DNA of 64,000 nucleotides from Thermoplasmata archaeon (lineage in GTDB: Archaea; Thermoplasmatota; E2; JACPAO01; JAHFTW01): assembly GCA_034667725.1 (NCBI GenBank), contig JAXDQS010000001.1, positions 109,593 to 173,592 of the forward strand, read 5' to 3'. Below the pieces are notes generated by a model that saw nothing but the letters and a program-made list of their open reading frames with translations, made no database searches and was not told the DNA's origin. How positions within the stretch are numbered: the stretch's first letter is position 1; every line of letters begins with the position of its first letter. This document shows, piece by piece, positions 9,815-63,677 of the stretch. The position numbers and the translations under genes are program-made.

Positions 9815-9888
9815 CGCGGCCCGGCCGGGACCCCCCGGGGAACAAAGCGACACCCTCACCCTATAAGCCGGGGCGGGAATGGACGCGC

Positions 9889-15178: not shown

Positions 15179-15376
15179 CCCGGAGGTCGCCTTAGGCGCA
15201 GCGGGAGCGGAGCCGTCGCGCGGCTCGGGCGACATCACCATGCGGCGCGGCACGGAGGTCCGACGGATAAGCGGCCCGGCGCAGGAGGGAACCGCCGGCT
15301 TCGGCGCGCACATTGGCCTACGTTCGTCGGCCTCCGAGGGGCAACGCCTAAGCGGAGGGTCAGGACTCGCTGGCGC

Positions 15377-16378: not shown

Positions 16379-16382
16379 GGGC

Positions 16383-41002: not shown

Positions 41003-41006
41003 CGGT

Positions 41007-41432: not shown

Positions 41433-41531
41433 CGGGGCGGCGACCCTGGCGGCCCGGATAAGCCTTGGGCGGACCTGGAAGAAACGGGTCCTTCCGGGAA
41501 CCTTGAAGGGGCCAAGGTGGATGCGCCGCGC

Positions 41532-43277
41532 ATGGGCCTGGGACGGCTGGTCGAGCCCCACCCGTCGTTGCAGGGAGCCGCGGCCCGCCAGGCCCGGATG
41601 GCGGCGGCCCTGTGCGGCGTCCTGCTGCTGCTCTGCCCATTCTGGATCGCGGCCAACGTCGCCTCCGACGGCTGGGGGGCGTTGACGGTCCTTGGCAGCT
41701 CCACCAGCACCCTGCTGATGGTGGGGGCCTACTTCTTGGCCCGGTCGCGCCGGCCGACCCTTGGCGGGCTGCTGCTGTGCGCCATCCTCGTCGCGGTGGT
41801 CTGCTTCCTGCGGGTGGTCGAGCCGGACCCGGACGCCTCGAGCCACAGCTACACCTTCTTCCTGCTCCCCATCCTGATCGCCAGCCTGGTGCTGGGGCCC
41901 TGGCACGCGCTGGGCGTGTTCGCAGCCTCCTACTTTGCCGGCATCGTCGTGGACACCTCGTTCCACCTGCCCCAGGAGTCCCCGAAGGCTGTTCTCCTGT
42001 CGGTGCTGCTCGGCCTGGCCATCACGGGCCTGGCCGTCGTGTTCGCGTTCGTGAACCACGCCGCGCAAGAGGCCCTCCACCAGCGCGACGCCCAGTTGGC
42101 CGCCGCCAACGCCGACCTGGAGCGCCGTGTCCAGGCGCGCACCCGCGAGCTGGAGGCCGCCAAGGAGACCGCCGAGCGCGCCTCCCGCGCCAAGAGCGTG
42201 TTCCTCGCCAGCATGAGCCACGAGATCCGCACGCCGCTGCACGCCATGGTCAACGGCGCCGAGGCGCTGGCGCGCGACGGCAAGGACGCCGACGCCGCCA
42301 CCACCGTGCGCGCCAGCGCCGACGACATCCTCTGGGTCCTGGGCAGCGTGCTCGACTTCGCCGCCCTCGAGGACGGCGAAGTCGCCACCCTGCGCCGCCC
42401 GTTCGAGCCGCGCGCCGTGGTGCGCGACGCCATGGCCGCCGTCGCGCCCGCCGCCGCGGCCAAAGGCCTGCGGCTGGAGGCGGCGTCCGACGCGCTGCCG
42501 GAGCGCGCCGTCGGCGACGGCCTGCGGCTCGGCCAGGTGCTGCGCCACCTGCTGCACAACGCCGTCAAGTTCACGCCCACCGGCTCGGTGCGCATCGAGG
42601 CGGCGGTGCGCGCCGCCGACGACCGGCTGGAGCTGCGCTTCGTCGTCGTGGACACCGGGCCGGGCATCCCGGCCGAGGCCCAGGCCACCCTGTTCACGCC
42701 GTTCACGCAGGCCGAGCAAGGCACGCGGCGGCGCCACGACGGCGCCGGCCTCGGCCTGGCGCTCTGCAAGCGGCTGCTGGAGACCATGGGCGGCGGCATC
42801 CGGGTCGAGAGCACGCCCGGCGCCGGCACCCGCGTCGAGGCGTGGGTGGCCGCCTGGCCGGCGCCGCCCGCCAGCCTCGCGCCCGCCGTCCGGCTGGAGG
42901 GCCTGCGGGTGCTGGTGGTCGAGGACAACCCGACCAACCGCAAGGTGGCCGCCAAGCTGCTGGAGCGGCTCGGCATGGTGGCGGACACCGCCGAGGACGG
43001 CGTCCAAGGGGTCGCCAAGGCGAAGGCGACGCGCTACGACGCCATCCTCATGGACCTGCACATGCCGAACATGGACGGCTTCGAGGCGACCGCCGCGCTG
43101 CGCGGGCTGGGTCCGGACGCGATGCCGCCCATCCTTGCCATGACGGCCGACGTGCTGCCTGAGACGCGGCGGCGCTGCGAGGAGCTGGGGATGCGCGGGT
43201 TCCTGCCCAAGCCGACGCGGCTGGAGGAGCTCCGGGACGGGCTCGCCAAGGCGCTGGCTCAGTCGATGACCACGTAG
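41532..43277 (+). CDS. Hybrid sensor histidine kinase (N-terminal 5-TM sensor, HisKA, HATPase_c, C-terminal receiver)
   Basis: H-box SHEIRTPLHAM. N/G1/G2 boxes (LLHNAVKFT, DTGPGI, GAGLGLALC). REC domain LRVLVVEDNPTNRKV...DAILMDLHMPNMDG...K. Confidence 0.85.
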   Translation: MGLGRLVEPHPSLQGAAARQARMAAALCGVLLLLCPFWIAANVASDGWGALTVLGSSTSTLLMVGAYFLARSRRPTLGGLLLCAILVAVVCFLRVVEPDPDASSHSYTFFLLPILIASLVLGPWHALGVFAASYFAGIVVDTSFHLPQESPKAVLLSVLLGLAITGLAVVFAFVNHAAQEALHQRDAQLAAANADLERRVQARTRELEAAKETAERASRAKSVFLASMSHEIRTPLHAMVNGAEALARDGKDADAATTVRASADDILWVLGSVLDFAALEDGEVATLRRPFEPRAVVRDAMAAVAPAAAAKGLRLEAASDALPERAVGDGLRLGQVLRHLLHNAVKFTPTGSVRIEAAVRAADDRLELRFVVVDTGPGIPAEAQATLFTPFTQAEQGTRRRHDGAGLGLALCKRLLETMGGGIRVESTPGAGTRVEAWVAAWPAPPASLAPAVRLEGLRVLVVEDNPTNRKVAAKLLERLGMVADTAEDGVQGVAKAKATRYDAILMDLHMPNMDGFEATAALRGLGPDAMPPILAMTADVLPETRRRCEELGMRGFLPKPTRLEELRDGLAKALAQSMTT

Positions 43278-46752: not shown

Positions 46753-47955
46753 GTGCAAGCGATGAGCCTGGTCGAGTCGGAGCTTGGGGGCCCGACGGTC
46801 TTCAAGGACCTCTCCAAGCTGGACTTCGACTACATCCCCGACGACCTGCCCGGCCGCGAGGAGGCCATCCGCTTCCTGGCCCGGACCTACAAGGGGCTCA
46901 CCCAAGGCGCCCAGCGCGAGCACGCCTTCCTCTGGGGGCCCGTCGGCACCGGCAAGACCGCCGTCGCCAAGCGCTTCGCCCGCGACTTCAAGGCCGCCCT
47001 CCAGAAGCAGGGCAAGGCGCTCGAGTTCGTCCACGTCAACTGCCGCAAGCGCAAGACCGACGGGCTTGCCATGCTGGGCATCCTGAACCATTTCGACCCC
47101 AACTACCCCGAGCGCGGCTTCGCGGTCGGCGAGATGCTGCGGGACCTGCGCAAGACCCTGGAGCGCAAGGGCGCCCACCTCATGGTCGTCCTGGACGAGG
47201 TGGACGCCCTGTTCCGCAGCGACGGCGGCAACCTGGTCTATGACCTGACGCGCTTCAACGACGAGACCGGCCCCTCCTGGGTCGGCGTCAGCCTCATCCT
47301 CATCAGCCAGGAGAACGTCCTCGGGCAGCTCGACCCCGCCGCCCTTTCGACCTTCAAGACCTCCAACGTGCTGCACATCCAGCCCTACGGCTCCCCCGAG
47401 CTGGAGCGCATCGTGGACCAGCGCGTCCGCCTCGCCTTCAACCCGGGCACGGTCGCCGAGGAGGTCGGGGCCCTGGTCGCCGACACCGCCGCCGCCCAAG
47501 GGGGCAACGCCCGCCTGGCCATCGAAATCCTCCAGAAGGCCGGCCAGAACGCCGACGACCACCGCCGCGACGAGGTGCTGGCCGAGGACGTCCGCACCGC
47601 CAAGGCCGACTCCTACTCCTACATCACGACGGCCAAGCTGACCGCGCTTCCCCGCCACCCCCTGCTGGTCCTGCTGGCGCTCGCCCGCCGCCTCCGGAAG
47701 GACGGCGCCTACAGCACCACGGGCAACGTCGAGAAGGCCTACGCCGTCGCGTGCGAGGAGTTCGGCGAGCAGCCCCGCGCCCACACCCAGTTCTGGAAGT
47801 ACCTCAACCAGCTCAAGGACGGCGGCTTCCTCGTGAGCCGCCTGTCGGGCAAGGGCCAGGCCGGCACCACCCAGCTCCTCTCGATTCCTGACGCGCCCGC
47901 CGAAGCCGTGGAAGGCAAGCTCGTCGAGCTGCTGCGCGCCATGCCCCTAGGCTGA
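46753..47955 (+). CDS. orc1: Orc1/Cdc6 replication initiator
   Basis: Walker A GPVGTGKT. Walker B/sensor VVLDEVD. C-terminal winged-helix. ~400 aa. Confidence 0.93.
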   Translation: MQAMSLVESELGGPTVFKDLSKLDFDYIPDDLPGREEAIRFLARTYKGLTQGAQREHAFLWGPVGTGKTAVAKRFARDFKAALQKQGKALEFVHVNCRKRKTDGLAMLGILNHFDPNYPERGFAVGEMLRDLRKTLERKGAHLMVVLDEVDALFRSDGGNLVYDLTRFNDETGPSWVGVSLILISQENVLGQLDPAALSTFKTSNVLHIQPYGSPELERIVDQRVRLAFNPGTVAEEVGALVADTAAAQGGNARLAIEILQKAGQNADDHRRDEVLAEDVRTAKADSYSYITTAKLTALPRHPLLVLLALARRLRKDGAYSTTGNVEKAYAVACEEFGEQPRAHTQFWKYLNQLKDGGFLVSRLSGKGQAGTTQLLSIPDAPAEAVEGKLVELLRAMPLG

Positions 47956-48072
47956 ACCCCCAGGCACGTCCAAGGCCATGCGCCGCGTGCCGCGCTTTCC
48001 ACGGACCCGCACGGGTCGGCAGCAGCGGTCCGAAGGTCACAACGTTCTAACCCCGAACGCAGATGTTCATGT

Positions 48073-48762
48073 ATGCACGAGCAGCAGCTGGAGCGGACGG
48101 AGGAGCGCGAGGCCATGCTCGCCGAGCTGGAGTCGGGCGGCTACCTCACGGACCCGCGCCTGGAGGAGGCCATGCTGGCCGTCCCCCGCCACCTGTTCGT
48201 GCCCAAGGAGCTGCGCGAGGCCGCCTACGAGGACCGTCCGCTGCCCATCGGCTTCGGCCAGACCGTCTCGGCGCCGCACATGGTGGCCATGATGACCAAC
48301 GCCCTGCAGCTCGAGCCCGGCCAGAAGGTGCTGGAGGTCGGCACCGGCGTCGGCTACCACGCCGCCGTCGTCAAGGGCGTCGTCGGCGACAAGGGCCGCG
48401 TCGACTCCATCGAGTTCCTGCCCGAGCTGGTGGAGCTGGCCCGCAAGAACCTCAAGGCCGCCAAGATCAAGGTCACGGTCCACGAGGGCGACGGCGCCAA
48501 CGGCCTCCCCGACGGTGCCCCCTTCGACGCCATCTACGTCACGTGCGCGATTCCGGACGTCCCCCAGACGCTTGTGTCCCAGCTCAAGGACGGCGGCCAC
48601 TTCGTGGCGCCCATCGGCATCACCCGCTGCCAGCTCATGGCGGGCCGCAAGGAAGGCGCCACCCTGACGCTGGAGGACCTGGGGCCGTGCCTGTTCGTCA
48701 ACGCGCAAGGCGCGCTGGGCCAGGTCGGGGCTGGCGGCGACGCCGCTCCCGCCGAATCTTGA
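48073..48762 (+). CDS. pcm: Protein-L-isoaspartate O-methyltransferase
   Basis: SAM-binding VLEVGTGVGYHAAV. Conserved PIMT blocks ...QTVSAPHMVA... and ...DAIYVTCA.... Confidence 0.88.
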   Translation: MHEQQLERTEEREAMLAELESGGYLTDPRLEEAMLAVPRHLFVPKELREAAYEDRPLPIGFGQTVSAPHMVAMMTNALQLEPGQKVLEVGTGVGYHAAVVKGVVGDKGRVDSIEFLPELVELARKNLKAAKIKVTVHEGDGANGLPDGAPFDAIYVTCAIPDVPQTLVSQLKDGGHFVAPIGITRCQLMAGRKEGATLTLEDLGPCLFVNAQGALGQVGAGGDAAPAES

Positions 48763-48804
48763 GCCCAGCCCAAGGTTGAAGCGCCTCCCTCCTGTCGCCG
48801 CCGC

Positions 48805-51801
48805 GTGGCCCTGCTGAACCTCTCCAACACCCATGCGTTCTGGCAGGGGCGCGAGCCGGAGCCGCTGGCCGACCTCCACAAGCCGTCGTTCCTGGCGTTC
48901 CCGCGCGACCCGAACGAGCCCATCCACAAGGCGCACGAGCGGCTGCTGGCCTTGGTCGAGGGCGCCCGCGGCGAGGACCCGGAGCGGACGGCGCTCGCCA
49001 AGGCCCACAGCGTGCTGGAGCCGATCCGCTACAAGTCGTTCTGGAACCACGGCCAGTCGCGCGACGCCATCCCGGTGGCGGCCAAGCGCAGCTTCTGGGT
49101 GCCCGACATCTCGGACGAGCTGTTCTTCCGGCACGGGTTCTACACCTGCGAGCACGACATCCCCTACACCGAGCGCGCCGCCGCCGACCTGGCCGCCGAG
49201 AAGGACTGGTGGCTGCTGGACTCCCACGGCCTGCCCAACAAGCTGTCGGTGCTGACCTACGACATCGAGACGACGCAGTACGGCAAGAACGGCAACCGCC
49301 CCGGCGCGTCGGTGCCCATCGACGTCATCGGCTACGCGGACTTCCCGGTCGAGTACGCCGCCCACAAGGACCTGGTGAACGAGCAGTTCGACTTCGAGTT
49401 CCGCCACCTGCCCGCCGACTGGGCCCAGCGCGAGGTCACGCAGCTCGTGGCGCACACGCCGGACCAGGAGATCGACAACCTGCAGCAGTTCACCGAGATG
49501 GCGGTGCGGCACGACATCGTCGCCGGCCACAACATCCTCGGCTTCGACAACAAGCAGATCCACGACCGCATCGTCGAGATCCTGCGCGCCGACCAGCGCA
49601 AGGGCACGCTGTCGCCCCGCACCCGCGAGTGGTTCCAGCGCTTCACCAACGTCTACTCGCGGCCCGACCGCAGCTTCCACTTCGGCACCCAGCAGGATAT
49701 CGCCGTCTGGCACCCGCTCACGCTCGACACGTTCCACGCTGCGCGCAAGTTCTACTTCTACCACGACGACTTCACCCTCAAAGGCCTGGCGCCGTGGCTC
49801 GGCATCGACGTGCCCGACCGTGTCCACATGGACGCGCACGACATGGCCCTCGACGCCAAGACCCTGCTCTACAACAAGCACGACGTCCAGGAGCAGATCG
49901 GCATCACCCAGATGCTCATCGCGCAGGCGCTGCCGCTGTGCTTCAACGTCAACCTCGCCCTCGACGACCTGCTCACGAGCGGCACCACCAAGATGTGGGA
50001 CCATATGGCGTTCCTGCGCGCCCGCCGCGAGCGCCGCTTCATGCCCGCCACCTGCCGCGCGCAGGCGGTCGCGCGCGCCGTGCAGCGCGTGCTGCCGCAC
50101 CGGCCGTTCCCGACCCGCGAGGAGGTCGCGGCCGCGTGCCTAGAGCTGCCGCCGGAGGAGCGCGCCACCTCGCAGAACAAGGAGTTCGTGCGCGTGGCCA
50201 AGCAGGGGCCCGAGATGCCGTTCTGGTGCGAGCATCCGGGTGTCATCGCGCGCAGCCAAGACAACGAGTCGGGCGACCCCGACGATCCGAACGGCTACGC
50301 CATCCCCGGCGGCATGACCCTCAAGCCGGACACGGAGCTGAAGTCCCACTTCGTGCCGTGGTTCCACGTCGTGGCGGCGGACGTCGGCGCCATGTACCCG
50401 ACCATCCTCAAGGCACGGAACCTGACGGCGGACACCGTCCAGCCCGCCAAGGCCGGCGAGACGCCCGACGACTGGATCTGGCTGTTCGAGCTGGACCCTG
50501 CCTTCGCCAACTCGGGCAAGTACCTCGTCAAGAAGGCCGACCCCGCCGACCGCTTCACCAAGGGCAAGGGCTGGCTCATCGGCGTCAAGCACTCCAAGGA
50601 CCCTGGCATGGTCAACCTCGCCATGACGGGCATCCTCAGCACCATCCAGAAGGTCAAGTCGGCCCGCGCCCGCGCCAAGAAGGAAGGCCGCCCCAAGGAC
50701 GAGATCCGCATCCACGACATGACCTACCAGAGCCTCAAGGCCGCCCGCAACGCCGGCACCCACGGCATCCTGGTCGCCGTCAACGTCAGCTGCCGCCAGT
50801 TCAACGTCTGGGGCGGCGCCAACATCACCACCATCGGCCAGCGCATCCTGCACGACACCTTGGTCGACTGGGAGTCGCAAGGCATCCGCGTCGTCTACGG
50901 CGACACCGACGGCATCTACATGGGCTGCAGCAAGTCGGCGGGCAACCTGCCGCACTTCGCCGCGGCGCTGGGCGCGGACGTGGAGCCCGAGGCGGACAAA
51001 TGGATCACCATGCCCCAGACCGCCCTCGACGCCGTGGCCGCCGCCAACCGCAAGTGGCGCGACGAGCTGCAGTACGAAGGCTTCGAGCTGGAGGCCGAGA
51101 CGCACGACGCCATGGTGTTCATCGTCCACAAGAACTACCTCATCTTCGACGCCAAGGCCGACGGCGCCAGCATCGGCATGGAGACCAAGGGCAACAACTT
51201 CAAGGGCAGCGACAAGGCCCCGCTCGCCCAGATCCTGCTCAAGGACATCATGGCCAAGGCGCTCCGGGACGTGGCGTCGTGGAGCAGCGAGGACAAGGCC
51301 CGCGAAGCGATGAAGACCGCGATCAAGAAGGCCACCCGCGAGGTCATGCAGGCCGTCCAAGTCGCCAAGACCGACTGGAACGACCTCATCCTGCGCCAAT
51401 CGGTGTCGAGCGTCAAGTCCTACGAAGCCAACCCCGACGGCACCCTCCGGAGCCAAGCCGTCCGCACCGCAGCACTCGAAGACCTGCTGGGCGAGCACAT
51501 CACCGCCACCCGGAAGTTCAAGTTCATCGTCTGCCGCGAGCCGCTGCCGCTCTACAAGGACCCCGCCAGCCAAGAACGCAAGCGGCTGGAGCTCGCCCGC
51601 GGCGGCCACCAACTCATCGTCAAGGAGCCCAAGAACCGCGGCCTCAAGCCCATCGAATACATGTGGCCCGTCGAGAAGGTCACGCCCGCCATGGTCGACT
51701 GGGCCTGGTACAAGTCGATGGTCGAGGACTACGTCAAAGGCGCCTTCGGGCTGGAGTCGCTGGACCTCGTCGTGCAGCGGGACCTGAGCAGCTGGTTCTA
51801 G
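48805..51801 (+). CDS. polB: Family B DNA polymerase (GTG start), divergent
   Basis: Exo I LTYDIETT. Exo II HNILGFD. Pol motif A DVGAMYPTI. Motif C YGDTDGIY. KxY-like KGNNFKG. 998 aa. No intein signatures. Confidence 0.88.
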   Translation: MALLNLSNTHAFWQGREPEPLADLHKPSFLAFPRDPNEPIHKAHERLLALVEGARGEDPERTALAKAHSVLEPIRYKSFWNHGQSRDAIPVAAKRSFWVPDISDELFFRHGFYTCEHDIPYTERAAADLAAEKDWWLLDSHGLPNKLSVLTYDIETTQYGKNGNRPGASVPIDVIGYADFPVEYAAHKDLVNEQFDFEFRHLPADWAQREVTQLVAHTPDQEIDNLQQFTEMAVRHDIVAGHNILGFDNKQIHDRIVEILRADQRKGTLSPRTREWFQRFTNVYSRPDRSFHFGTQQDIAVWHPLTLDTFHAARKFYFYHDDFTLKGLAPWLGIDVPDRVHMDAHDMALDAKTLLYNKHDVQEQIGITQMLIAQALPLCFNVNLALDDLLTSGTTKMWDHMAFLRARRERRFMPATCRAQAVARAVQRVLPHRPFPTREEVAAACLELPPEERATSQNKEFVRVAKQGPEMPFWCEHPGVIARSQDNESGDPDDPNGYAIPGGMTLKPDTELKSHFVPWFHVVAADVGAMYPTILKARNLTADTVQPAKAGETPDDWIWLFELDPAFANSGKYLVKKADPADRFTKGKGWLIGVKHSKDPGMVNLAMTGILSTIQKVKSARARAKKEGRPKDEIRIHDMTYQSLKAARNAGTHGILVAVNVSCRQFNVWGGANITTIGQRILHDTLVDWESQGIRVVYGDTDGIYMGCSKSAGNLPHFAAALGADVEPEADKWITMPQTALDAVAAANRKWRDELQYEGFELEAETHDAMVFIVHKNYLIFDAKADGASIGMETKGNNFKGSDKAPLAQILLKDIMAKALRDVASWSSEDKAREAMKTAIKKATREVMQAVQVAKTDWNDLILRQSVSSVKSYEANPDGTLRSQAVRTAALEDLLGEHITATRKFKFIVCREPLPLYKDPASQERKRLELARGGHQLIVKEPKNRGLKPIEYMWPVEKVTPAMVDWAWYKSMVEDYVKGAFGLESLDLVVQRDLSSWF

Positions 51802-52629: not shown

Positions 52630-52702
52630 GGGCCCCTAGCTTAGACTGGTAGAGCACCCGGCTGATAACCGGGAGGTCGGGCGTTCGAATCGCCCGGGGC
52701 CC
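52630..52702 (+). tRNA. tRNA-Ile (anticodon GAT)
   Basis: Cloverleaf: acceptor GGGCCCC/GGGGCCC, anticodon stem CCCGG/CCGGG, loop CTGATAA, T-loop TTCGAAT, discriminator A. No encoded CCA. Confidence 0.85.
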
Positions 52703-52745
52703 ACTCCCAACCCTTTTGCCGCAGCGCAGGGTCGGGCCACACAAC

Positions 52746-52818
52746 GGGCGAGTAGATCAGCTGGTAGATCGCTGCCTTCGCAAGGCAGAGGCCGGGGGTT
52801 CAAATCCCTCCTCGTCCA
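52746..52818 (+). tRNA. tRNA-Ala (anticodon CGC) with the G3:U70 identity pair
   Basis: Acceptor GGGCGAG/CTCGTCC gives G3:U70. Anticodon stem CTGCC/GGCAG, loop TTCGCAA. T-loop TTCAAAT. Discriminator A. Confidence 0.85.
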
Positions 52819-52868: not shown

Positions 52869-55022
52869 TCAGGGTCCGGCCTGGGCAGGCGCCGTTGCCT
52901 TTGGCAGGGTGAAGGCGGCCGTCACGCCCTTGCCCTTTCCGGCGCTGGTGAGCGTCAGCTTCCCGCCGTGCGCGTCCACGATGGCCTTGCTGAGGTAGAG
53001 CCCGAGGCCGGTGCCCTTGGATTCCTCTGCGACTCCTTGGACTTGCGAGAACGGGCGGAACAGGCGTGCGATCTGCTCGGGCGTCAGGCCCAAGCCTTCG
53101 TCCTGGACGTAGATCTCGACGTGCTCGGGGCTTTCCCGCGCCCCGAGGCGGATGGTGCTGCCTGCGGGGGCGTAGCGGACGGCGTTGCTGACGAGGTTGG
53201 TGATGACTTGCAGGATGCGCCGTTCGTCGCCGAACGCCTCTAGGCGCCCCTCAAGCTGGGACCCGAGCTTCAGCCTCCGTTGCTGGGCTTGCGCCTCGAA
53301 CGTCTCGACGGCGTCCTGGAGAAGCCTGCCCACCTCGATCTTGCCGGGCTTGATGGTCATGCGGCCGGCCTCCACGCGCGCCAGGTCCAGGAAGTCGTCC
53401 AGCATCGTCGTCAAGCGCTTGACGTTCCGTTGCATGATGGCCATGGAGCGGTTGCGCTCCTCCTCGGACATGGGGACCGTCGTCATCATGTGGATTTGCA
53501 GGCTCAATGCGCTAAGGGGGGTCTTGATGTCATGCGTGGCCATGTTGAGCAGGTCGGTCTTGAACTGGCTGGCCAGCAGGGCTTTGCGCTTCTCGCGGAC
53601 ATGAGACTCCAGAAGACGGCCCCGTTGCAGGCCGGCGCCCATGCGGTCGGCCACAAGCTGCAGCAGCTCCAAGTCCTTCACGGCGAAGCGGTCCCTGCTG
53701 CGCGCGCCGCAAACGAGGACCCCCTGCACCTTGTCCTGGATGCGCAGGGGCACCGCGACCAAGGACTGGATGCCTTCCTCGGCAAGGCCAATGCGGAAGA
53801 TGTCGTCCGGCTGGACGTCGCTGACCAGCACCGGCTCGCCCGTCTCGACGATCTTGCGGATGCTTCCGCTGACGGACACGGGCCGAACGCCCAGGGAGGT
53901 CGCAAACCCCAGGCTGGCGCGCGGCCACAATTGGTCGCCTTCGTCGTCCATCAGGAGGATCGCCGCGACGTCGCTGGCCAGCAAGGTGCGCGTTCCCTCA
54001 AGGAGCAGGGCCAGGCGCTCATCCATCGGCAAGGCTCCCAAGGCCGCGTCGCGCATGGCCTCGTAGTCGCCGACGGTGGTCGCCGCCTTGGTCTGCTGCT
54101 CCACGTGGGCTTGGGCCAAGTTGACCATCGCTTCCGCATCGCCCTCCTTCGCGGCCTTGCGGAGCGCCACCGCCAAGGCCTGTTCTTCGTCGATGATGGG
54201 CTGGACCAGCCGGCGCCGCGTGCTGCCGGACTCCGTCTTGTCCAAGGGGGCGACGCGTGCCCGCTCGACGGCCATGCCGACCTGTTCTGCGACGACCTCG
54301 AGCAGGCGCTTCTCCTGCTCGTCAAAGCCGCGGCGGGTCGCCCAGCCGACCTCAAGCACGCCAAGGGGCTTGTCGCCCGCAAGGATGGGGACGGTCACAA
54401 GCCGCTGGATTCCCCGGCTCAGCAGCAATGGGTTCGCGACGGTCTTCTCATTGACGTCGTCCACCGTCTGGGTCTCACGGGTCGCAAGGGCCACTCCGGC
54501 CACGCCTTCGCCCATGGGAATCCGGATTCCAGCCGTGACGGCGTCCTCAAGGCCGCTGGAGGCCCGGGCGAAGAGCTGGCGGCCGTCGGCCTCAAGCAGG
54601 AACACGGTGGCCGCGTCGGCGTCCAGCATCGTTCGGATGCGGCCGAGGATCTCGGGGAAGAACAGGTCGGGGTCCAGGTTCCTGAGCGCTGCGTCCAGGA
54701 TTTGCTCGTAGTGGCTGATGGTGACGGCCCGATGGACCTGCTCCTCGGCGTGCGCCACGGCCTCCTCGGCGACCTCGGTGGGCCCCTTCTCCGCCGCGCG
54801 CACCGCCTTCTGCAAGTGCTCTTTTTCCTCCGAGATGAGCTCATCGACGTGCGGGTCGACGTGCTCGCCGGCCGGCTTGCTTCCGTCGAGTGGCGGGTCC
54901 GCAGGCTTCGACGCTGGGGCCGCGCCCGGTTCAGGGGCGACCCAGCCCGATGGAGGGCGGCCTGATCTTTTGCGATGTCGGTCCTTGGAGGTCGCCGGTG
55001 CGGCGGCACGGTCGCGCGCCAT
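52869..55022 (-). CDS. Sensor histidine kinase with tandem GAF domains (cytoplasmic)
   Basis: H-box ATHDIKTPLSAL. HATPase_c N/G boxes (LVSNAVRYAP, DEGLGL, GTGLGLYLSKAIV). Two GAF-like regions upstream. The N-terminal half of ORF 52869..56741 is an artefact. Confidence 0.8.
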   Translation of the reverse strand: MARDRAAAPATSKDRHRKRSGRPPSGWVAPEPGAAPASKPADPPLDGSKPAGEHVDPHVDELISEEKEHLQKAVRAAEKGPTEVAEEAVAHAEEQVHRAVTISHYEQILDAALRNLDPDLFFPEILGRIRTMLDADAATVFLLEADGRQLFARASSGLEDAVTAGIRIPMGEGVAGVALATRETQTVDDVNEKTVANPLLLSRGIQRLVTVPILAGDKPLGVLEVGWATRRGFDEQEKRLLEVVAEQVGMAVERARVAPLDKTESGSTRRRLVQPIIDEEQALAVALRKAAKEGDAEAMVNLAQAHVEQQTKAATTVGDYEAMRDAALGALPMDERLALLLEGTRTLLASDVAAILLMDDEGDQLWPRASLGFATSLGVRPVSVSGSIRKIVETGEPVLVSDVQPDDIFRIGLAEEGIQSLVAVPLRIQDKVQGVLVCGARSRDRFAVKDLELLQLVADRMGAGLQRGRLLESHVREKRKALLASQFKTDLLNMATHDIKTPLSALSLQIHMMTTVPMSEEERNRSMAIMQRNVKRLTTMLDDFLDLARVEAGRMTIKPGKIEVGRLLQDAVETFEAQAQQRRLKLGSQLEGRLEAFGDERRILQVITNLVSNAVRYAPAGSTIRLGARESPEHVEIYVQDEGLGLTPEQIARLFRPFSQVQGVAEESKGTGLGLYLSKAIVDAHGGKLTLTSAGKGKGVTAAFTLPKATAPAQAGP

Positions 55023-59295: not shown

Positions 59296-60066
59296 TCAGC
59301 GCCGCCCCGGCTCCAGGTACTGCCTGCCCGCCTCGCGCATCTCCGCGATCAGCGCCTTCGCCCGCGCTTCCGGGCCCGTGGCGCGAATCACGATGCGGCC
59401 GCGGTCCGGGTAGCTGCCCAGCGTCACGTCCGGGTAGGCCTTCTCCAGCCGCGCCAGGACGCCGTAGAACCGCGACTCCTCGGTGTGCAGCACCAGCTCC
59501 TCGCTGTGGATCGGCGTCCCGGCGGCAAGCCGCGGGCGCACCGACTCGTCGAACATGCGGTAGAACTCGGCGGGCACGCCGGGCAGCGTGAACAGCGTCG
59601 TCGGCTTCGGACCCGCTGTCACGATGGCGCCCAAGGCGGTGCCGACGGCGTTGGGCATCGGGATGGCCCCCTCGGGAAGCTTGGCCATCTTCAGCAGGCC
59701 TTCGTTGGGTTCTGGCGACTCGAAGTAGCCGAGGCGGTGGCCGAAGCGGGCGCGCTCGCGCATCCACGCCAGGTTCTCGGGCGTCGTGACGAGCGGCTTG
59801 CCGATCGCCTGCGCGATGCCTGCCATGGTGCGGTCGTCGGGGGTCGGGCCGAGGCCGCCGGAGGTGACGACGTAGTCCAGGTCCAGGTCGAAGACGAAGC
59901 GGCGCACCGACGCGACGATGTCCGGCAGGTCGTCGCTGCACACCTCGACGCGGCGGAGCGCGATGCCCATCGGCTTGACCTGCTTGGCCAGCCAGTGCGA
60001 GTTGGATTCGTGGACGTGGCCGCCCAGCACCTCGTCGGCCACGACCAGGACGCCGATGCGCTTCAC
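59296..60066 (-). CDS. CinA-like / MoCF-biosynthesis (MoaB/MogA-fold) domain protein
   Basis: IGVLVVADEVL...VVTSGGLGPTPDD motif of the molybdopterin-binding fold. Confidence 0.7.
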   Translation of the reverse strand: MKRIGVLVVADEVLGGHVHESNSHWLAKQVKPMGIALRRVEVCSDDLPDIVASVRRFVFDLDLDYVVTSGGLGPTPDDRTMAGIAQAIGKPLVTTPENLAWMRERARFGHRLGYFESPEPNEGLLKMAKLPEGAIPMPNAVGTALGAIVTAGPKPTTLFTLPGVPAEFYRMFDESVRPRLAAGTPIHSEELVLHTEESRFYGVLARLEKAYPDVTLGSYPDRGRIVIRATGPEARAKALIAEMREAGRQYLEPGRR

Positions 60067-60073
60067 GGGCCCG

Positions 60074-60967
60074 TCATCGGGTCGTCGTCTTGAAGGCTGG
60101 CGGTCGGCGCAGGTCGGGGATCGGGATGGGCGGGTTCAGCCGGAAGCGGGCGTCCCACGCGGCGCGCGGCCAGTAGAGGGTCGCCCGCAGCAAGAGGAGG
60201 CCGCCGGCCATCGCCACCGCGGGGCCCAGGACGGGGCCGCCGCGGTCGACGTTGGAGGCGAAGGCGTACATCGCGACGCCAATCACTCCGGCACCGAGGA
60301 AGACCAGGCCCCAATAGGGGACCGTGCGCCACGACGAGCCAGAGAGCAGGGCCGCAAGCAGCGCGAGGTCGGCCGTCGAGAGGACCACCTGGACGGCCAG
60401 CGGCTCGGTGCCTCCAAGCCTTTGGCCCGCGAGCATGACGAGGGGGATGGCCGTGATGGCGGCGACGATGCGCACCGGCGGCGGCAGCCGGAGCGCCGGC
60501 AGCGCCGCCACGAACAGCAGCGAGACGATGAAGCTCAACGGCTCGTGCTTGACGTCCAAGGTGAAGTAGAGCATCCCCATGGCAAGGCTGGCGGACAGGA
60601 AGACCGGACTGCGCTTGCCGCTCACGGTCGCAAGGCCGAGCAGCAACCCCGTGATGACCAAGGGGGCCCATGGGGTGACGCGGTGCGGCTCTTGGTCCGT
60701 TGCCTCGTCCAAGGCGACGTCGGCCCCCATCAGCAGGGCGGCAAGGACGATGGCCATGCAGAGGCCCAGCAGGGGCAGCCGCAGCTCGCGCAGGTCGGGC
60801 CGGCCGAAGGGGAACAGGTTGAACGTCCACAAGTGCGCCTCGGGAACGGGCGCGGCGGCGGCCGGTGGCGGAGGGGCCTCCGCTTCAAGGATGGCGTCCC
60901 TCTGCTCGGGGGAGATGAGCCCCTTCTCGACCCATTCCTCCAGTTGTCGCGTCTTGCCCGCCCGCAT
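60074..60967 (-). CDS. Polytopic membrane protein, DUF2157-like (paralog of 62618..63586)
   Basis: N-terminal cytoplasmic helix LEEWVEKGLISPEQRDAILEA, then 7-8 TM helices. Confidence 0.5.
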   Translation of the reverse strand: MRAGKTRQLEEWVEKGLISPEQRDAILEAEAPPPPAAAAPVPEAHLWTFNLFPFGRPDLRELRLPLLGLCMAIVLAALLMGADVALDEATDQEPHRVTPWAPLVITGLLLGLATVSGKRSPVFLSASLAMGMLYFTLDVKHEPLSFIVSLLFVAALPALRLPPPVRIVAAITAIPLVMLAGQRLGGTEPLAVQVVLSTADLALLAALLSGSSWRTVPYWGLVFLGAGVIGVAMYAFASNVDRGGPVLGPAVAMAGGLLLLRATLYWPRAAWDARFRLNPPIPIPDLRRPPAFKTTTR

Positions 60968-61024
60968 GGCACGGCCACGAGCCCGGCAAAGGTTTGGCCC
61001 TTCTGGCGTGTTTGTTTGACTTGA

Positions 61025-61531
61025 CTACTCAAAACCCAGCGCCTGCTCCTCGACGGCGACCCGGCGGCGCACGGCCACCAGGTTCAGCAGCGGCACGGCG
61101 ACGGCGGCGGCCCACAACCCGAACGCGGCCGCGAAGCCCAGAAGCTCGAACGTGACGCCGAGGTAGATCGGGTGCCGCAGGTGGCAGTATGGCCCCTTGG
61201 CCACCAGCGGCGCCTCCGGCAGCACCCAGACCCGCGTGCTCCAGCGGCCGCCCAAAGCCAGCATCGACCAGTAGCGCAACGCGGCGCCCGCCACGAAGAA
61301 CCCGATGCCCACGGGCGTCCACCAGCCGAGGGCCGCGCCCCGGACGGCGTCCTCCGCCGCGCAGGCCGCGAAGAACAGCACATGCACCGCGACGATGCCG
61401 AGCATCCCGTCGGGCCGCACCGGCCGCGCGCCTTGCGCCGCCAAGCCCTTCGCCGTGTGCCTGGCATAAGCCAGCTCGGCCAGGCGCTGCACGCCGACGA
61501 CCACGAGCGCCCCCGCCAACAACGGCATCAT
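61025..61531 (-). CDS. ICMT/PEMT-family membrane methyltransferase (BpsB/YpbQ-like)
   Basis: 168 aa. Multiple TM. C-terminal GPYCHLRHPIYLG...E motif of the isoprenylcysteine carboxyl methyltransferase family. The start ATG overlaps the PKS stop (ATGA 61528-61531). Confidence 0.7.
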   Translation of the reverse strand: MMPLLAGALVVVGVQRLAELAYARHTAKGLAAQGARPVRPDGMLGIVAVHVLFFAACAAEDAVRGAALGWWTPVGIGFFVAGAALRYWSMLALGGRWSTRVWVLPEAPLVAKGPYCHLRHPIYLGVTFELLGFAAAFGLWAAAVAVPLLNLVAVRRRVAVEEQALGFE

Positions 61532-62583
61532 GCGACCACCAACGCCAGCTCGCTTGCAAAGCCAGGCCCCAGGGCGGCCAGGAGCGCCGTGGACCCGGCC
61601 GCCGGGCGGCTGCGCTGCCACGCCTGCAACGCGAACAGCACCGTCGGGCTCGACATGTTGCCGTGCGCCCGCAGCACCTCCTCGCTCCACGCCAGGTCCG
61701 CAGACGACAGGCCCAAGGCGTCGCGGTAGGCCTCCAGCACCTTGGCGCCGCCCGGATGCAGCACCCAGGCGTCGACGCGGCGGCCTGCCACGAACGGCCG
61801 CACCAGATTCGCCATCTCGGCGCGCACGATGTCCGGGATGCGCGGCGACAGCACCACGTCCAGGTTGCCGTCCTCGACGTCCCAGCCCATGACGCGCTCG
61901 GTGCCGGGGAACAGGTGCGACGCGCCCGCCTCGTGGCGCGCGCCGATGCCCTGCCCGGACACCACGACCGCCGCGCAGCCGTCGCCGAACAGGCTCGCCG
62001 CGACCACCGCCTTCTTGTCGCCGCCCTGGCCGGCGGCCATGGCGCGCGGGGCGTCGAACGACAGGCTGCACAGCTCGAGCGCGACCGCGAGCACGTGCAG
62101 CCCGGGCCGCGCGCGCACCAGGTCGGCCGCCCGGTTGAGGGCCGCGACCCCGCCGGCGCAGCCGAGGCCCCAGACCGGCACCCGGAGCGTGTCCGGGCGG
62201 AGGCCAAGGCGGCCGGCGAGGCGGGCGTCGAGGCTCGGGGTCGCAAGGCCGGTGGTGGAGACGAACAGCACCGCGCCGATGTCCTGGGGCGCAAGGCCGG
62301 CGGTGGCGATGGCCTCGCGGGCGGCGGCCTCGACGAGGGGCAGGCCGGCGTCGACGTAGGCGGCGTTGCGGTCGCGGAAGCCGTGCGGCGCGAGATACCA
62401 CTCGATCGGCATCGCGAGCGCGCGGGCGGCCACGCTCGGGTGGTCGAACAGCTCGAGCGCGTTGCGTTTGGCGGCGCCCTCCGGCATCATGGCGGCCGCG
62501 ACCTCGCGCAGCTCCGCCTGCCGCAGCCGATGGGGCGGCGTCGTGGTGGCGACCGGATGCACGACGGCCAAGGATGGCCACAT
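61528..62583 (-). CDS. Type III polyketide synthase (chalcone/stilbene synthase family)
   Basis: Catalytic Cys in VWGLGCAGG. GFGPG replaced by LGPGF. H in VLHPGGAKV and N in HGNMSS. ~350 aa. Confidence 0.8.
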   Translation of the reverse strand: MWPSLAVVHPVATTTPPHRLRQAELREVAAAMMPEGAAKRNALELFDHPSVAARALAMPIEWYLAPHGFRDRNAAYVDAGLPLVEAAAREAIATAGLAPQDIGAVLFVSTTGLATPSLDARLAGRLGLRPDTLRVPVWGLGCAGGVAALNRAADLVRARPGLHVLAVALELCSLSFDAPRAMAAGQGGDKKAVVAASLFGDGCAAVVVSGQGIGARHEAGASHLFPGTERVMGWDVEDGNLDVVLSPRIPDIVRAEMANLVRPFVAGRRVDAWVLHPGGAKVLEAYRDALGLSSADLAWSEEVLRAHGNMSSPTVLFALQAWQRSRPAAGSTALLAALGPGFASELALVVA

Positions 62584-62617
62584 CGGCTCCAGCCTGAAGG
62601 GGTTTGTGCCGCGGGGG

Positions 62618-63586
62618 TCAGGTGCCGGGGTCGGCCCAGCGGCGGCGCAGCACGGTCGCGAGCGCCAGGACGGCGGCGGCCACGGCGAGGATCACCAGGA
62701 TGCCGAAGACCAGCCCGCCCACGTCGAAGGCGAACACGATGGCGTCGATGGCGAGCACGGTGGCGGCGCCGACCAGGAGGTTCGGGTCGCGGATGCGCAG
62801 GGCGAGCGCCAGGAGGGCGGCGGCGGGGAGGGCCACCGCCAGCTCCGGGGCGCCGTGGTCGTCCAGGTCCAGCACCTCGGCCGTGAAGACCGCGACGGGG
62901 GCGGCCACCAGCACCGCGGCCAGGCCAAGCGCCGGCGAGACCCATTCCTGCTTGAAGCCGACCCGAAGGAACGCCAAGGCGGCGAGGTGGACGGCGGCGA
63001 TGGCCAGCCAGGCCATGATGCCCGCGTCGCCGGGGCCAAAGAACTGGTCCTGGCCGAACAGGCGCAGGCTGACCACGAACGCGGCGGCTTGGAGCGCCAG
63101 CGTGGCGAAGAACGCGGCCATGGTCGTGCGGCGCGTGAACGAGACCGCGGCGGCCACGGCGACCGACACGACCGAGAACCATTGGCCGAGCGCCTCGTCC
63201 GGCAACGGCGCGAACGTCAGGCAGACGAGGGCCGCGACCAGCAAGGCGTCGGCGAGGTCCTGGTTGCGCGACAGGAACCAGAGCGCGACGCCGCCGGCCA
63301 GCAGGCCCAGCCCAAGCGCGAACAAGATGGACCCCTGCTCCGCGCGGTGGTCCCCGGCCACCTGGTCGAACAGCAGCACCACGAGGGCGATGGCCGCGGC
63401 GCCCAGCAGCACGCCGCCCAGCCCATGCAGGATGGTGGGCAGCGCCGCCCGCCGCCCCGACGGCTCTTGGGCAAGTGCTGGGGCCAGCTCCGCCTCGATG
63501 CGCGCGACGGAAGGTCCTGGAATCCAGCCTTTGGCGGCCCAACGGCGGACATGCGCCAGGAGCTTGCGGGCCTCGTCGCCGTCCAT
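62618..63586 (-). CDS. Polytopic membrane protein, DUF2157-like (paralog of 60074..60967). Start taken at the internal Met.
   Basis: N-terminal helix ARKLLAHVRRWAAKGWIPGPSVARIEAELA, then about 8 TM helices. The ORF extends to 63718 but the paralog alignment supports 63586. Confidence 0.5.
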   Translation of the reverse strand: MDGDEARKLLAHVRRWAAKGWIPGPSVARIEAELAPALAQEPSGRRAALPTILHGLGGVLLGAAAIALVVLLFDQVAGDHRAEQGSILFALGLGLLAGGVALWFLSRNQDLADALLVAALVCLTFAPLPDEALGQWFSVVSVAVAAAVSFTRRTTMAAFFATLALQAAAFVVSLRLFGQDQFFGPGDAGIMAWLAIAAVHLAALAFLRVGFKQEWVSPALGLAAVLVAAPVAVFTAEVLDLDDHGAPELAVALPAAALLALALRIRDPNLLVGAATVLAIDAIVFAFDVGGLVFGILVILAVAAAVLALATVLRRRWADPGT

Positions 63587-63677
63587 GCCGGACCAGCCGT
63601 TCGCCGGCCGATAACCATGCCGGAATCCCTTCCAAGGGGGAGCGGCATGGACGGGCGTGGCCGTCACCGTGGCGCCC

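What the first reader, a model, noticed from the sequence alone, without database searches (positions are those of the whole stretch)
59296..63586. Type III polyketide synthase translationally coupled to an ICMT-like membrane methyltransferase, flanked by paralogous membrane proteins (archaeal BpsA/BpsB-like cluster)
The PKS (Cys-His-Asn triad contexts GCAGG / HPGG / GNMSS) ends in TGA, which overlaps the ATG of an ICMT-family methyltransferase (ATGA at 61528-61531). This is the same gene pair as Bacillus bpsA-bpsB (alkylpyrone/alkylresorcinol methyl ethers). Type III PKS, to my knowledge, is rarely reported in archaea. The pair is sandwiched between two paralogous DUF2157-like polytopic membrane proteins (60074-60967 and 62618-63586), with a CinA-like gene downstream, all on the minus strand with 7-57 nt gaps. 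This suggests a membrane-lipid or phenolic-lipid biosynthetic module.
Basis: partly seen in the sequence, partly recalled or inferred. Interest (0 to 1): 0.75.

Follow-up and report, generated by a model that had tools for sequence, protein, structure and literature searches.

The report
Archaeal type III polyketide synthase–methyltransferase pair
A soil or groundwater-type Thermoplasmata archaeon carries the same two-gene unit that bacteria use to make methylated long-chain phenolic or pyrone lipids; it is a real and conserved archaeal copy of a known bacterial system, and the membrane genes around it are ordinary chromosomal neighbours.

Summary
The sequence observation holds. A 351-aa type III polyketide synthase (62583-61528, minus strand; Cys142/His276/Asn309) ends in a TGA that overlaps the ATG of a 168-aa ICMT-family membrane methyltransferase (ATGA, 61531-61528). 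The PKS is not FabH: its best solved relative is M. tuberculosis alkylpyrone synthase Pks11 (E 2e-54; model TM 0.92).

The contig is archaeal (Orc1/Cdc6, PolB, aEF-1alpha, RFC, CDC48) and comes from a Thermoplasmata MAG. NCBI already names the gene "alkylresorcinol/alkylpyrone synthase".

The PKS-ICMT pair is adjacent in 15/15 archaeal relatives and in 113/136 bacterial loci. The archaeal PKSs (117 sequences) form one clade (NJ bootstrap 95) among bacterial BpsA-like enzymes, and all keep the catalytic residues.

The flanking genes are not part of the unit:
- The two membrane proteins are at best remotely related (BLASTP E 3; hhalign 42%).
- A relative (L171) keeps both of them plus the CinA-like gene with no PKS-ICMT on that contig.

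Most likely function: O-methylated alkylpyrone or alkylresorcinol membrane lipids, BpsA/BpsB style, from a pair acquired from bacteria. The acyl starter in an archaeon is unknown.

Verdict: a new member of a known kind, of moderate interest.

The parts
61528..62583 (-). Type III polyketide synthase, 351 aa (NCBI MEA3189569.1, 'alkylresorcinol/alkylpyrone synthase')
   Evidence: Pfam Chal_sti_synt_N/C and FAE1_CUT1_RppA. Best PDB sequence hit is Pks11, E 2.1e-54. AF2 model pLDDT 91; Foldseek top hit Pks11 with TM 0.92, and the top 50 hits are all type III PKS.
62158..62160 (-). Catalytic Cys142 codon (GLGCAGG)
   Evidence: Aligns with Pks11 Cys138, the residue changed in the C138S entry 4JAT. 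Invariant in 117/117 archaeal and 45/45 bacterial sequences. Coordinates.
61756..61758 (-). Catalytic His276 codon (LHPGG)
61657..61659 (-). Catalytic Asn309 codon (HGNMSS)
62017..62055 (-). Subclade-specific surface-loop insertion in the PKS (residues 177-189, DAPRAMAAGQGGD)
   Evidence: The segment between C172 and F199 is longer than 20 residues in 91/117 archaeal-clade sequences and is exactly 20 in 45/45 bacterial ones. It is the lowest-confidence block of the model, pLDDT about 60.
61528..61531 (-). ATGA overlap: PKS stop TGA and methyltransferase start ATG
   Evidence: Overlap or a spacer of 0-1 nt is also seen in L083, L084, L085, L088 and L089.
61025..61531 (-). ICMT-family integral-membrane methyltransferase, 168 aa (MEA3189568.1), BpsB/DquB-like
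   Evidence: Pfam ICMT PF04140 at 67.1 bits against a cut-off of 24; PEMT at 33 bits. The GPY..RHPIY and R.R...EE.AL motifs are shared with 131 PKS-adjacent homologues.
62618..63586 (-). DUF2157-like polytopic membrane protein, 322 aa (MEA3189570.1; JGI calls a 353-aa form starting at 63679)
   Evidence: DUF2157 at 27.3 bits, below the cut-off. About 9 hydrophobic segments. AF2 model pLDDT 77 with no significant PDB fold match. Found without a PKS in L170 and L171. Judged a neighbour and not a demonstrated component.
60074..60967 (-). Second polytopic membrane protein ('MEM2'), 297 aa, with no family assignment (MEA3189567.1)
   Evidence: No Pfam or NCBIfam hit. About 7 hydrophobic segments. 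Homologues sit in the same slot in L084 and L089, and next to the DUF2157-like gene in the PKS-less L171.
59296..60066 (-). CinA N-terminal-type (COG1058 / MoCF_biosynth + FLAD1_M) protein, 256 aa, with no PncC deamidase domain
   Evidence: Pfam. PDB hits are Ta0487 (3KBQ) and residues 1-230 of the 394-aa CinA. It is syntenic only in the subclade with at least 56% identity, and it is present in L171 without the PKS.

Best explanation
The functional unit is the two-gene pair, a type III PKS plus an ICMT-family membrane methyltransferase. It was inherited within a lineage of high-GC Thermoplasmata/Thermoplasmatota after one ancient acquisition from bacteria.

Proposed mechanism, by analogy with BpsA/BpsB, DquA/DquB and Pks11:
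1. The soluble homodimeric PKS loads a medium- or long-chain acyl thioester on Cys142.
2. It condenses the starter with two or three malonyl-CoA units and cyclises the product to an alkyl-alpha-pyrone and/or an alkylresorcinol.
3. The amphiphilic product partitions into the membrane.
4. There the ICMT-like enzyme O-methylates a ring hydroxyl with S-adenosylmethionine. The result is a membrane-resident methylated phenolic or pyrone lipid.

Shown here: family identity, catalytic residues, fold, gene coupling, clade structure and archaeal chromosomal context.

Inferred: substrates, products, methylation target and physiological role.

The flanking DUF2157-like, MEM2 and CinA-like genes are co-directional neighbours from the local chromosomal backbone. 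They are probably co-transcribed but are not dedicated pathway components.
For: PKS identity:
- Pfam and NCBIfam place it with chalcone/stilbene-synthase-type enzymes, far above the FabH models.
- All 60 listed PDB sequence hits and all top 50 Foldseek hits are type III PKSs, led by alkylpyrone synthase Pks11 (36.5% identity, TM 0.92, rmsd 2.0 A).

Conserved residues:
- C142, H276, N309, F199, W234 and K/R281 are conserved in 117/117 archaeal-clade sequences.
- C172 aligns with PKS18 Cys205, the residue changed in the 1TEE C205F mutant. T111 aligns with PKS18 Thr144.
- F199 and W234 match the acyl-binding Phe191 and Trp226 cited for DquA and Pks11 (PMC9827899).

Gene coupling:
- An ICMT gene lies directly downstream in 15/15 archaeal loci and 113/136 bacterial loci.
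- 13 of 15 archaeal ICMTs cluster together in a neighbour-joining tree.
- BpsB is reported to O-methylate BpsA products (PMC9827899).

Archaeal origin of the contig:
- The window carries RFC, a proteasome subunit, aEF-1alpha, RtcB, NucS, Orc1/Cdc6, PolB and CDC48.
- GC and GC3 are uniform across the region.

Single clade:
- Neighbour-joining bootstrap is 95/100 for archaeal monophyly against 45 bacterial sequences.
- Locus synteny is conserved across relatives of 56-65% identity.
Against: - There is no biochemical evidence for any archaeal member.
- No acyl-activating enzyme, ACP or acetyl-CoA carboxylase is encoded next to the pair in any archaeal locus or anywhere in the 64-kb window.
- Archaea generally lack ACP-dependent fatty-acid synthesis (general knowledge), so the starter supply is unexplained.
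- Ring type cannot be read from sequence. The Trp thought to favour resorcinols is present, but DquA has the same Trp and makes only pyrones.
- DquB methylation could not be shown in E. coli.
- The tree is neighbour-joining on a limited bacterial sample, and it includes no experimentally characterised BpsA, SrsA or ArsB sequences.
Confidence: 0.8

Rival explanations
1. All five genes (DUF2157-like, PKS, ICMT, MEM2, CinA-like) form one dedicated phenolic-lipid module. In this reading the membrane proteins export, flip or anchor the lipid.
For: - The genes are co-directional with 7-57 nt spacers, and no terminator-like site was found.
- A DUF2157-like or MEM2-like gene lies beside the pair in 7 of the 8 CinA-syntenic loci. 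It is sometimes upstream and sometimes downstream.
- In L085 the ICMT and CinA-like genes overlap by 4 nt.
Against: - None of these three genes occurs next to the pair in any bacterial locus, nor in the more divergent archaeal loci L004, L005, L086, L087, L090 and L093.
- L171 carries MEM2-like, DUF2157-like and CinA-like genes in a row with no PKS or ICMT on the 8.9-kb contig. L170 has a DUF2157-like gene with no PKS in the 6 kb upstream.
- The CinA N-terminal (COG1058) domain family is linked to nucleotide and NAD recycling, not lipid chemistry (general knowledge; PDB relatives).
Confidence: 0.1
2. The pair makes a polyketide quinone that serves as a membrane electron carrier. This role has been proposed for related type III PKS lipids in mycobacteria.
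For: - The closest solved relative is mycobacterial Pks11.
Against: - No hydroxylase or monooxygenase (SrsC-like) gene is adjacent in the window or in any archaeal locus examined.
- Such an enzyme would be needed to turn a methylated resorcinol into a quinone (general knowledge of SrsABC-type clusters).
Confidence: 0.06
3. The enzyme is a FabH/KAS III-type condensing enzyme of primary metabolism that has been mis-read as a PKS.
For: There are weak secondary hits to ACP_syn_III (24 bits) and ACP_syn_III_C (30 bits), and to FabH NCBIfam models (47-54 bits against cut-offs of 249-292).
Against: - The Chal_sti_synt_N/C and DpgA models score far higher (77, 42 and 140 bits).
- No FabH appears among the 60 PDB sequence hits or the 50 best fold hits.
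- The gene clusters with BpsA-like enzymes that carry the ICMT partner.
Confidence: 0.01
4. The pair is bacterial DNA that was mis-assembled or mis-binned into an archaeal MAG.
For: - The family is overwhelmingly bacterial.
- One close homologue (P0030) is labelled 'bacterium', and a partial one is labelled 'Halobacteriales'.
Against: - The pair lies inside a contig of 236-368 kb with archaeal hallmark genes on both sides.
- Composition matches the neighbouring genes.
- The same flanking archaeal genes recur in independent assemblies. These include the 'bacterium'-labelled contig L089.
Confidence: 0.02

Closest known systems
Bacillus subtilis BpsA/BpsB (alkylpyrone/alkylresorcinol synthase plus ICMT-type O-methyltransferase) and the Sporomusaceae pair DquA/DquB
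   Same: - Same two-gene architecture, with the PKS immediately upstream of a small ICMT-family membrane methyltransferase.
- Same catalytic triad.
- Same conserved Phe and Trp that are cited as acyl-binding residues.
   Different: - Only 35-39% identity to Bacillaceae homologues.
- The host is an archaeon with no link to sporulation.
- The window's subclade has an extra 6-12-residue loop after Phe176.
- The ICMT motif reads RHPIY where the bacterial consensus is RHPNY.
- Products are untested.
Mycobacterium tuberculosis Pks11 (PDB 4JAO/4JAP), a long-chain alkylpyrone synthase
   Same: - Best sequence match (E 2e-54, 36.5% identity) and best structural match (TM 0.92, rmsd 2.0 A).
- The triad and the HPGGxK motif align.
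   Different: - Two indels, a 7-residue insertion and a 5-residue deletion relative to Pks11.
- Whether pks11 has an adjacent ICMT-type gene was not examined here.
Streptomyces griseus SrsA/SrsB/SrsC and Azotobacter ArsB/ArsC phenolic-lipid systems
   Same: Same enzyme family and the same class of membrane-active alkylresorcinol or alkylpyrone products. SrsB is also a methyltransferase partner (general knowledge; roles summarised in PMC9827899).
   Different: - No SrsC-type hydroxylase and no ArsA/ArsD-type dedicated fatty-acid synthase lies near the archaeal pair.
- Sequences of these enzymes were not available for direct comparison here.
Type III PKS clusters flagged by antiSMASH-type surveys in archaeal MAGs (Thermoplasmatota in the Cariaco Basin, PMC9902471; a Cenarchaeum MAG, PMC12795557)
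   Same: Same kind of observation: a PKS gene in an uncultured archaeon, known from sequence only.
   Different: Those surveys give no gene-level analysis. This report adds the archaeal clade, the invariant ICMT partner, the synteny and the insertion.

Membership tests
Type III polyketide synthase (chalcone/stilbene synthase superfamily) | Chal_sti_synt N- and C-terminal domains scoring above curated thresholds | tested here: met
   PF00195 at 77.3 bits (cut-off 27), PF02797 at 41.6 bits (27) and PF08392 at 43.9 bits (27).
Type III polyketide synthase (chalcone/stilbene synthase superfamily) | Cys-His-Asn catalytic triad in register with solved enzymes | tested here: met
   C142, H276 and N309 align with Pks11 C138, H277 and N310. 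They are invariant in 117/117 clade members.
Type III polyketide synthase (chalcone/stilbene synthase superfamily) | Closer to type III PKS than to FabH/KAS III in both sequence and fold | tested here: met
   FabH models score 47-54 bits against cut-offs of 249-292. All 60 PDB sequence hits and all top 50 fold hits are type III PKSs.
Type III polyketide synthase (chalcone/stilbene synthase superfamily) | Iterative decarboxylative condensation of malonyl-CoA on an acyl starter, followed by cyclisation | not testable with these tools
   Needs an enzyme assay.
BpsA/SrsA/Pks11-type alkylpyrone/alkylresorcinol synthases | Residues lining the long acyl tunnel are conserved | tested here: met
   T111 and C172 align with PKS18 T144 and C205 (1TEE is the C205F mutant). 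F199 and W234 correspond to DquA F191 and W226. This is by alignment only. Tunnel geometry was not measured.
BpsA/SrsA/Pks11-type alkylpyrone/alkylresorcinol synthases | Adjacent ICMT-type methyltransferase gene | tested here: met
   4-nt overlap in the window. Present in 15/15 archaeal and 113/136 bacterial loci.
BpsA/SrsA/Pks11-type alkylpyrone/alkylresorcinol synthases | Groups phylogenetically with characterised members | tested here: inconclusive
   The archaeal clade sits among bacterial homologues that carry the ICMT partner, and Pks11 was included.
BpsA/SrsA/Pks11-type alkylpyrone/alkylresorcinol synthases | Long-chain alkylpyrone or alkylresorcinol product | not testable with these tools
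   Needs expression and LC-MS. Ring type cannot be predicted from the Trp/Gly position.
ICMT-family membrane methyltransferase (PF04140), BpsB-like | Pfam ICMT domain above threshold, with the GPY..RHPxY and C-terminal acidic motifs | tested here: met
   67.1 bits against a cut-off of 24. GPYCHLRHPIY at residues 113-123 and RRRVAVEEQAL at 155-165, conserved across 131 PKS-adjacent homologues. The NCBIfam isoprenylcysteine methyltransferase equivalog scores only 30.5 bits against a cut-off of 160, so this is not a protein-prenylcysteine enzyme by that model.
ICMT-family membrane methyltransferase (PF04140), BpsB-like | O-methylation of the PKS product | not testable with these tools
   Reported for BpsB. 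It could not be shown for DquB in E. coli.
DUF2157 (PF09925) | Score above the Pfam gathering threshold | tested here: inconclusive
   The upstream protein scores 27.3 bits against 32.4, but precomputed tables list PF09925 for it and for most of its homologues. MEM2 scores 13 bits on 22 residues only, which does not meet the threshold.
CinA (competence/damage-inducible protein A, bifunctional) | N-terminal COG1058/MoCF domain plus C-terminal PncC NMN-deamidase domain | tested here: not met
   Only the N-terminal part is present. The 256-aa protein matches residues 1-230 of the 394-aa CinA and the 172-aa Ta0487. NCBIfam scores are below all cut-offs. It is a stand-alone COG1058-type protein.

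The most novel reading that the evidence does not exclude
Archaea generally lack ACP-dependent fatty-acid synthesis, and no starter-supplying gene accompanies the pair. The archaeal clade, with its own loop insertion, may therefore be primed by a starter that is not a typical bacterial fatty acyl. Candidates include an isoprenoid-derived acyl-CoA or an acyl-CoA from an ACP-independent pathway. The product would be a class of polyketide membrane lipid, or a quinone-like carrier, not yet described in archaea. It would also be the first demonstrated archaeal polyketide.
Probability: 0.12. Interest if true: 0.75.

Novelty: new member of a known kind. Interest (0 to 1): 0.42.

Why it matters

This locus belongs to a coherent clade with intact catalytic residues. 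The clade holds more than 100 archaeal type III PKSs, and every neighbourhood examined has the methyltransferase partner. That gives a concrete two-gene target for answering the question by heterologous expression.

It also raises a specific problem: where an organism with isoprenoid ether lipids obtains a long-chain acyl starter and malonyl-CoA. If the products are ordinary methylated alkylpyrones or alkylresorcinols, the result extends a bacterial membrane-lipid trait to archaea through an old gene transfer. That would be useful but not surprising.

Tried and rejected
- **Paralogy of the two membrane proteins.** BLASTP E 3.1. hhalign 42% probability over the N-terminal third only. Pfam with E up to 10 was weak. 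Paralogy is not established.
- **Function of the DUF2157-like protein.** Only 11 homologues were found. The AF2 model has pLDDT 77 and pTM 0.61. Foldseek against the PDB gave no hit with E <= 0.001 and TM <= 0.41. No functional lead.
- **Starter-supply genes.** I searched for acyl-CoA ligase, ACP and acetyl-CoA carboxylase next to archaeal PKS genes and across the window. None were found. One locus, L004, has a 4HBT thioesterase two genes upstream.
- **Sigma-70 promoter and intrinsic terminator scan.** Nothing found, and the scan is not designed for archaea.
- **Monophyly of the archaeal ICMTs.** Not recovered for all 15. Thirteen form one clade, and the protein is short.
- **Product ring type from the ArsB Trp281 / ArsC Gly284 position.** Rejected as uninformative, because DquA and Pks11 carry Trp and make pyrones.
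- **K/R281 as an ACP-dependence marker.** Rejected, because DquA carries the same Lys and uses acyl-CoAs without ACP.
- **Literature.** No biochemical study of an archaeal type III PKS was found in the searchable library. One hit that mentions Thermoplasmatota T3PKS is a retracted paper and was not used.

Full report
**1. What is in the sequence.**

Between 59296 and 63586 the minus strand carries five co-directional ORFs:
- a 322-aa polytopic membrane protein (63586-62618);
- a 351-aa PKS-like protein (62583-61528);
- a 168-aa membrane protein (61531-61025);
- a 297-aa polytopic membrane protein (60967-60074);
- a 256-aa soluble protein (60066-59296).

The spacers are 34 nt, a 4-nt overlap, 57 nt and 7 nt. 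A convergent CDC48 AAA-ATPase gene ends 16 nt beyond the last ORF, and a divergent GNAT acetyltransferase gene starts 91 nt upstream of the first.

The PKS stop and the next gene's start overlap as ATGA at 61531-61528. All five ORFs have the GC3 of 0.91-0.96 typical of genes in this 71% GC window.

**2. Identity of the two core genes.**

The PKS matches Pfam Chal_sti_synt_N (77 bits), FAE1_CUT1_RppA (44) and Chal_sti_synt_C (42). All are above threshold. FabH-type models score only 24-30 bits in Pfam, and 47-54 bits in NCBIfam against cut-offs of 249-292.

Against the PDB, the best sequence hit is M. tuberculosis Pks11, a long-chain alkylpyrone synthase (E 2.1e-54, 36.5% identity). All 60 listed hits are type III PKSs.

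An AlphaFold2 model has pLDDT 91 and pTM 0.92. It superposes on Pks11 with TM 0.92 and rmsd 2.0 A. The 50 best fold matches are all type III PKSs and none is a FabH.

Residue correspondences:
- Cys142, His276 and Asn309 align with Pks11 Cys138, His277 and Asn310. The C138S mutant entry marks the nucleophile.
- Cys172 and Thr111 align with PKS18 Cys205 and Thr144. PDB 1TEE is the C205F mutant of that enzyme. My recollection is that these residues line the acyl tunnel.
- Phe199 and Trp234 correspond to the acyl-binding Phe191 and Trp226 cited for DquA and Pks11.

The 168-aa protein matches Pfam ICMT at 67 bits against a cut-off of 24. It carries GPYCHLRHPIY and a C-terminal RRRVAVEEQAL motif, both shared by 131 PKS-adjacent homologues. 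It does not reach NCBI's protein-prenylcysteine methyltransferase equivalog (30 bits against 160). That fits a small-molecule BpsB-type enzyme.

**3. Origin and context.**

The exact protein is in public databases as MEA3189569.1, 'alkylresorcinol/alkylpyrone synthase [Thermoplasmata archaeon]'. Its neighbour is named 'methyltransferase' and the other three are 'hypothetical' (locus tags QOD77_148-152). It lies on contigs of 236-368 kb.

The window is unmistakably archaeal. It carries the RFC large subunit, a proteasome subunit, aEF-1alpha, RtcB, NucS, Orc1/Cdc6, family-B DNA polymerase and CDC48. The pair's base composition matches its surroundings. Contamination, or a very recent transfer, is unlikely.

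**4. Conservation.**

The protein search returned 120 listed relatives of 48-85% identity. Wherever a source names them, it calls them Thermoplasmata or Thermoplasmatota. The exceptions are one partial 'Halobacteriales' hit and one 'bacterium' hit, and the latter's contig (L089) is syntenic with the archaeal ones.

In a neighbour-joining tree, 117 of these sequences plus four archaeal species representatives form one clade. Bootstrap support is 95/100 against 45 bacterial sequences from Chloroflexota, Bacillota, Alphaproteobacteria and other phyla, plus Pks11. All 117 keep the triad, F199, W234 and K/R281.

Across 15 distinct archaeal-clade loci, the ICMT gene is directly downstream in every case. 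It overlaps or lies within 0-1 nt in six of them, counting the window. Among bacterial loci with room downstream, 113 of 136 have it. Thirteen of the 15 archaeal ICMTs form one clade.

The simplest reading is that the pair entered an ancestor of this high-GC (63-75%) Thermoplasmatota lineage once, as a unit, and has since been inherited vertically under selection.

**5. The flanking genes.**

The claim that the pair is sandwiched between paralogous DUF2157 proteins within a lipid module does not hold up.
- The upstream protein scores below the DUF2157 threshold (27.3 against 32.4 bits). The downstream one matches only a 22-residue N-terminal helix.
- The two proteins are not similar by BLASTP (E 3.1). 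They are only marginally similar by profile comparison (42%, N-terminal third).
- None of the three flanking genes occurs beside the pair in bacteria or in the deeper archaeal branches (L004, L005, L086, L087, L090, L093).

In the subclade with at least 56% identity, the whole region is syntenic. The order is GMP-synthase subunit, (aminotransferase), PKS, ICMT, a variable membrane protein, the CinA-like gene, then ATP_bind_1 and GARS.

The slot between ICMT and the CinA-like gene varies:
- DUF2157-like in L003, L083 and L088;
- MEM2-like in the window, L084 and L089;
- empty in L085 and L091.

Decisively, contig L171 from another Thermoplasmatota MAG has aminotransferase, MEM2-like, DUF2157-like and CinA-like genes in a row, with no PKS or ICMT. 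L170 has a DUF2157-like gene with no PKS in the 6 kb upstream. The membrane genes and the CinA-like gene are therefore local backbone into which the PKS-ICMT pair is set.

The CinA-like protein is a stand-alone COG1058/MoCF domain (relatives Ta0487 and the N-terminal half of CinA). It lacks the deamidase half.

The DUF2157-like protein has about nine hydrophobic segments. Its moderate-confidence model has no significant fold match in the PDB, so its function stays open.

**6. Mechanism.**

The comparison is with BpsA/BpsB, DquA/DquB and Pks11 (PMC9827899).
1. The PKS most likely accepts a medium- or long-chain acyl thioester.
2. It adds two or three malonyl units and releases an alkyl-alpha-pyrone and/or an alkylresorcinol.
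3. The membrane-embedded ICMT-type enzyme then O-methylates the product.
4. The result is a membrane-resident lipid that modifies membrane properties.

Family identity, catalytic residues, fold and gene coupling are shown. Substrates, products and role are inferred.

Two sequence 'predictors' were examined and set aside:
- The Trp at the ArsB-281 position does not predict resorcinols, because DquA and Pks11 carry it and make pyrones.
- Lys/Arg after HPGG does not imply ACP dependence, because DquA uses acyl-CoAs.

The real open point is the starter. No acyl-activating enzyme, ACP or carboxylase accompanies the pair, and archaea generally lack ACP-dependent fatty-acid synthesis (general knowledge).

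**7. A clade-specific feature.**

Ninety-one of the 117 archaeal-clade sequences, including this one, carry a 6-12-residue insertion after Phe176. In the window it reads DAPRAMAAGQGGD, residues 177-189. It is absent from all 45 bacterial sequences and from the 26 deepest archaeal ones. It is the least confident part of the model, so it is probably a flexible surface loop. Its role is unknown.

**8. Novelty.**

The gene pair is a known kind of system, and this gene already carries the right name in NCBI and JGI. In the literature, archaeal type III PKSs appear only as counts in BGC surveys (PMC9902471, PMC11051675, PMC12795557).

[quoted passage not shown] I found no biochemical study.

This report adds:
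- the monophyletic archaeal clade;
- the invariant methyltransferase partner;
- the vertical synteny;
- the insertion;
- the demotion of the flanking genes.

I rate it a new member of a known kind, with moderate interest (0.42). There is roughly a 12% chance that the archaeal setting hides unusual starter chemistry, which would make it considerably more interesting.

Noticed in passing
L171:3820-6553 (GCA_041622435.1, JBFJYU010000117.1): A Thermoplasmatota contig carries MEM2-like, DUF2157-like and CinA-like genes in a row after an aminotransferase, with no PKS or ICMT gene. It looks like the 'empty site' version of the window's locus.
   Followed up: partly
window 62017-62055 (PKS residues 177-189): A 6-12-residue loop insertion is present in 91/117 archaeal-clade PKSs and in none of 45 bacterial ones. 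It has low model confidence and its function is unknown.
   Followed up: partly
window 24277-24699, 32147-32602, 32614-33024 (+): Three DUF1801-domain paralogues lie within 9 kb, two of them in tandem.
   Followed up: no
window 27515-29833 and 29599-31755 (-): Two large adjacent ORFs carry FG-GAP-like repeats, and one also has an expansin C-terminal-like domain. The called ORFs overlap by about 230 nt, so their start sites are uncertain. They are probably surface or secreted proteins.
   Followed up: no
window 36828-37733 (-): An exosortase/archaeosortase-family membrane protein (Exosortase_EpsH, 43 bits).
   Followed up: no
window 46753-51801 (+): Orc1/Cdc6, a protein-L-isoaspartate O-methyltransferase and a 998-aa family-B DNA polymerase lie in a row. 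A replication origin may be nearby. I did not look for origin repeats.
   Followed up: no
window 12431-16495 (-): The alanyl-tRNA synthetase ORF is 1354 aa as listed, and the synthetase domain starts only at residue 504. Either the true start is far downstream or there is a long N-terminal extension.
   Followed up: no
window 7155-9188 (-), 9879-11843 (+), 38680-39990 (+): Three ORFs (677, 654 and 436 aa) with coding-like GC3 have no Pfam match at E <= 1e-5. The 9879-11843 ORF has an unusual GC1 of 0.85.
   Followed up: no
window 40902-43277 (+) and about 52869-55022 (-): Bacterial-style signalling proteins in an archaeon: a hybrid histidine kinase with a receiver domain, and a GAF-GAF-HisKA-HATPase kinase (the latter from the JGI gene table for L001).
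   Followed up: no
window 52630-52818 (+): tRNA-Ile(GAT) and tRNA-Ala(CGC) lie 42 nt apart. No rRNA is present in the window.
   Followed up: no
L004:4813-5238: In one archaeal relative a 4HBT-family acyl-CoA thioesterase lies two genes upstream of the PKS. It is the only acyl-thioester enzyme seen near any archaeal PKS-ICMT pair.
   Followed up: no
window 63587-63677: A 91-nt divergent intergenic region separates the DUF2157-like gene from a GNAT acetyltransferase gene. A TTAT element lies about 25-28 nt upstream of the ATG at 63586. That would fit a leaderless archaeal transcript and favours the 322-aa start over the 353-aa JGI call. This is inference only.
   Followed up: no
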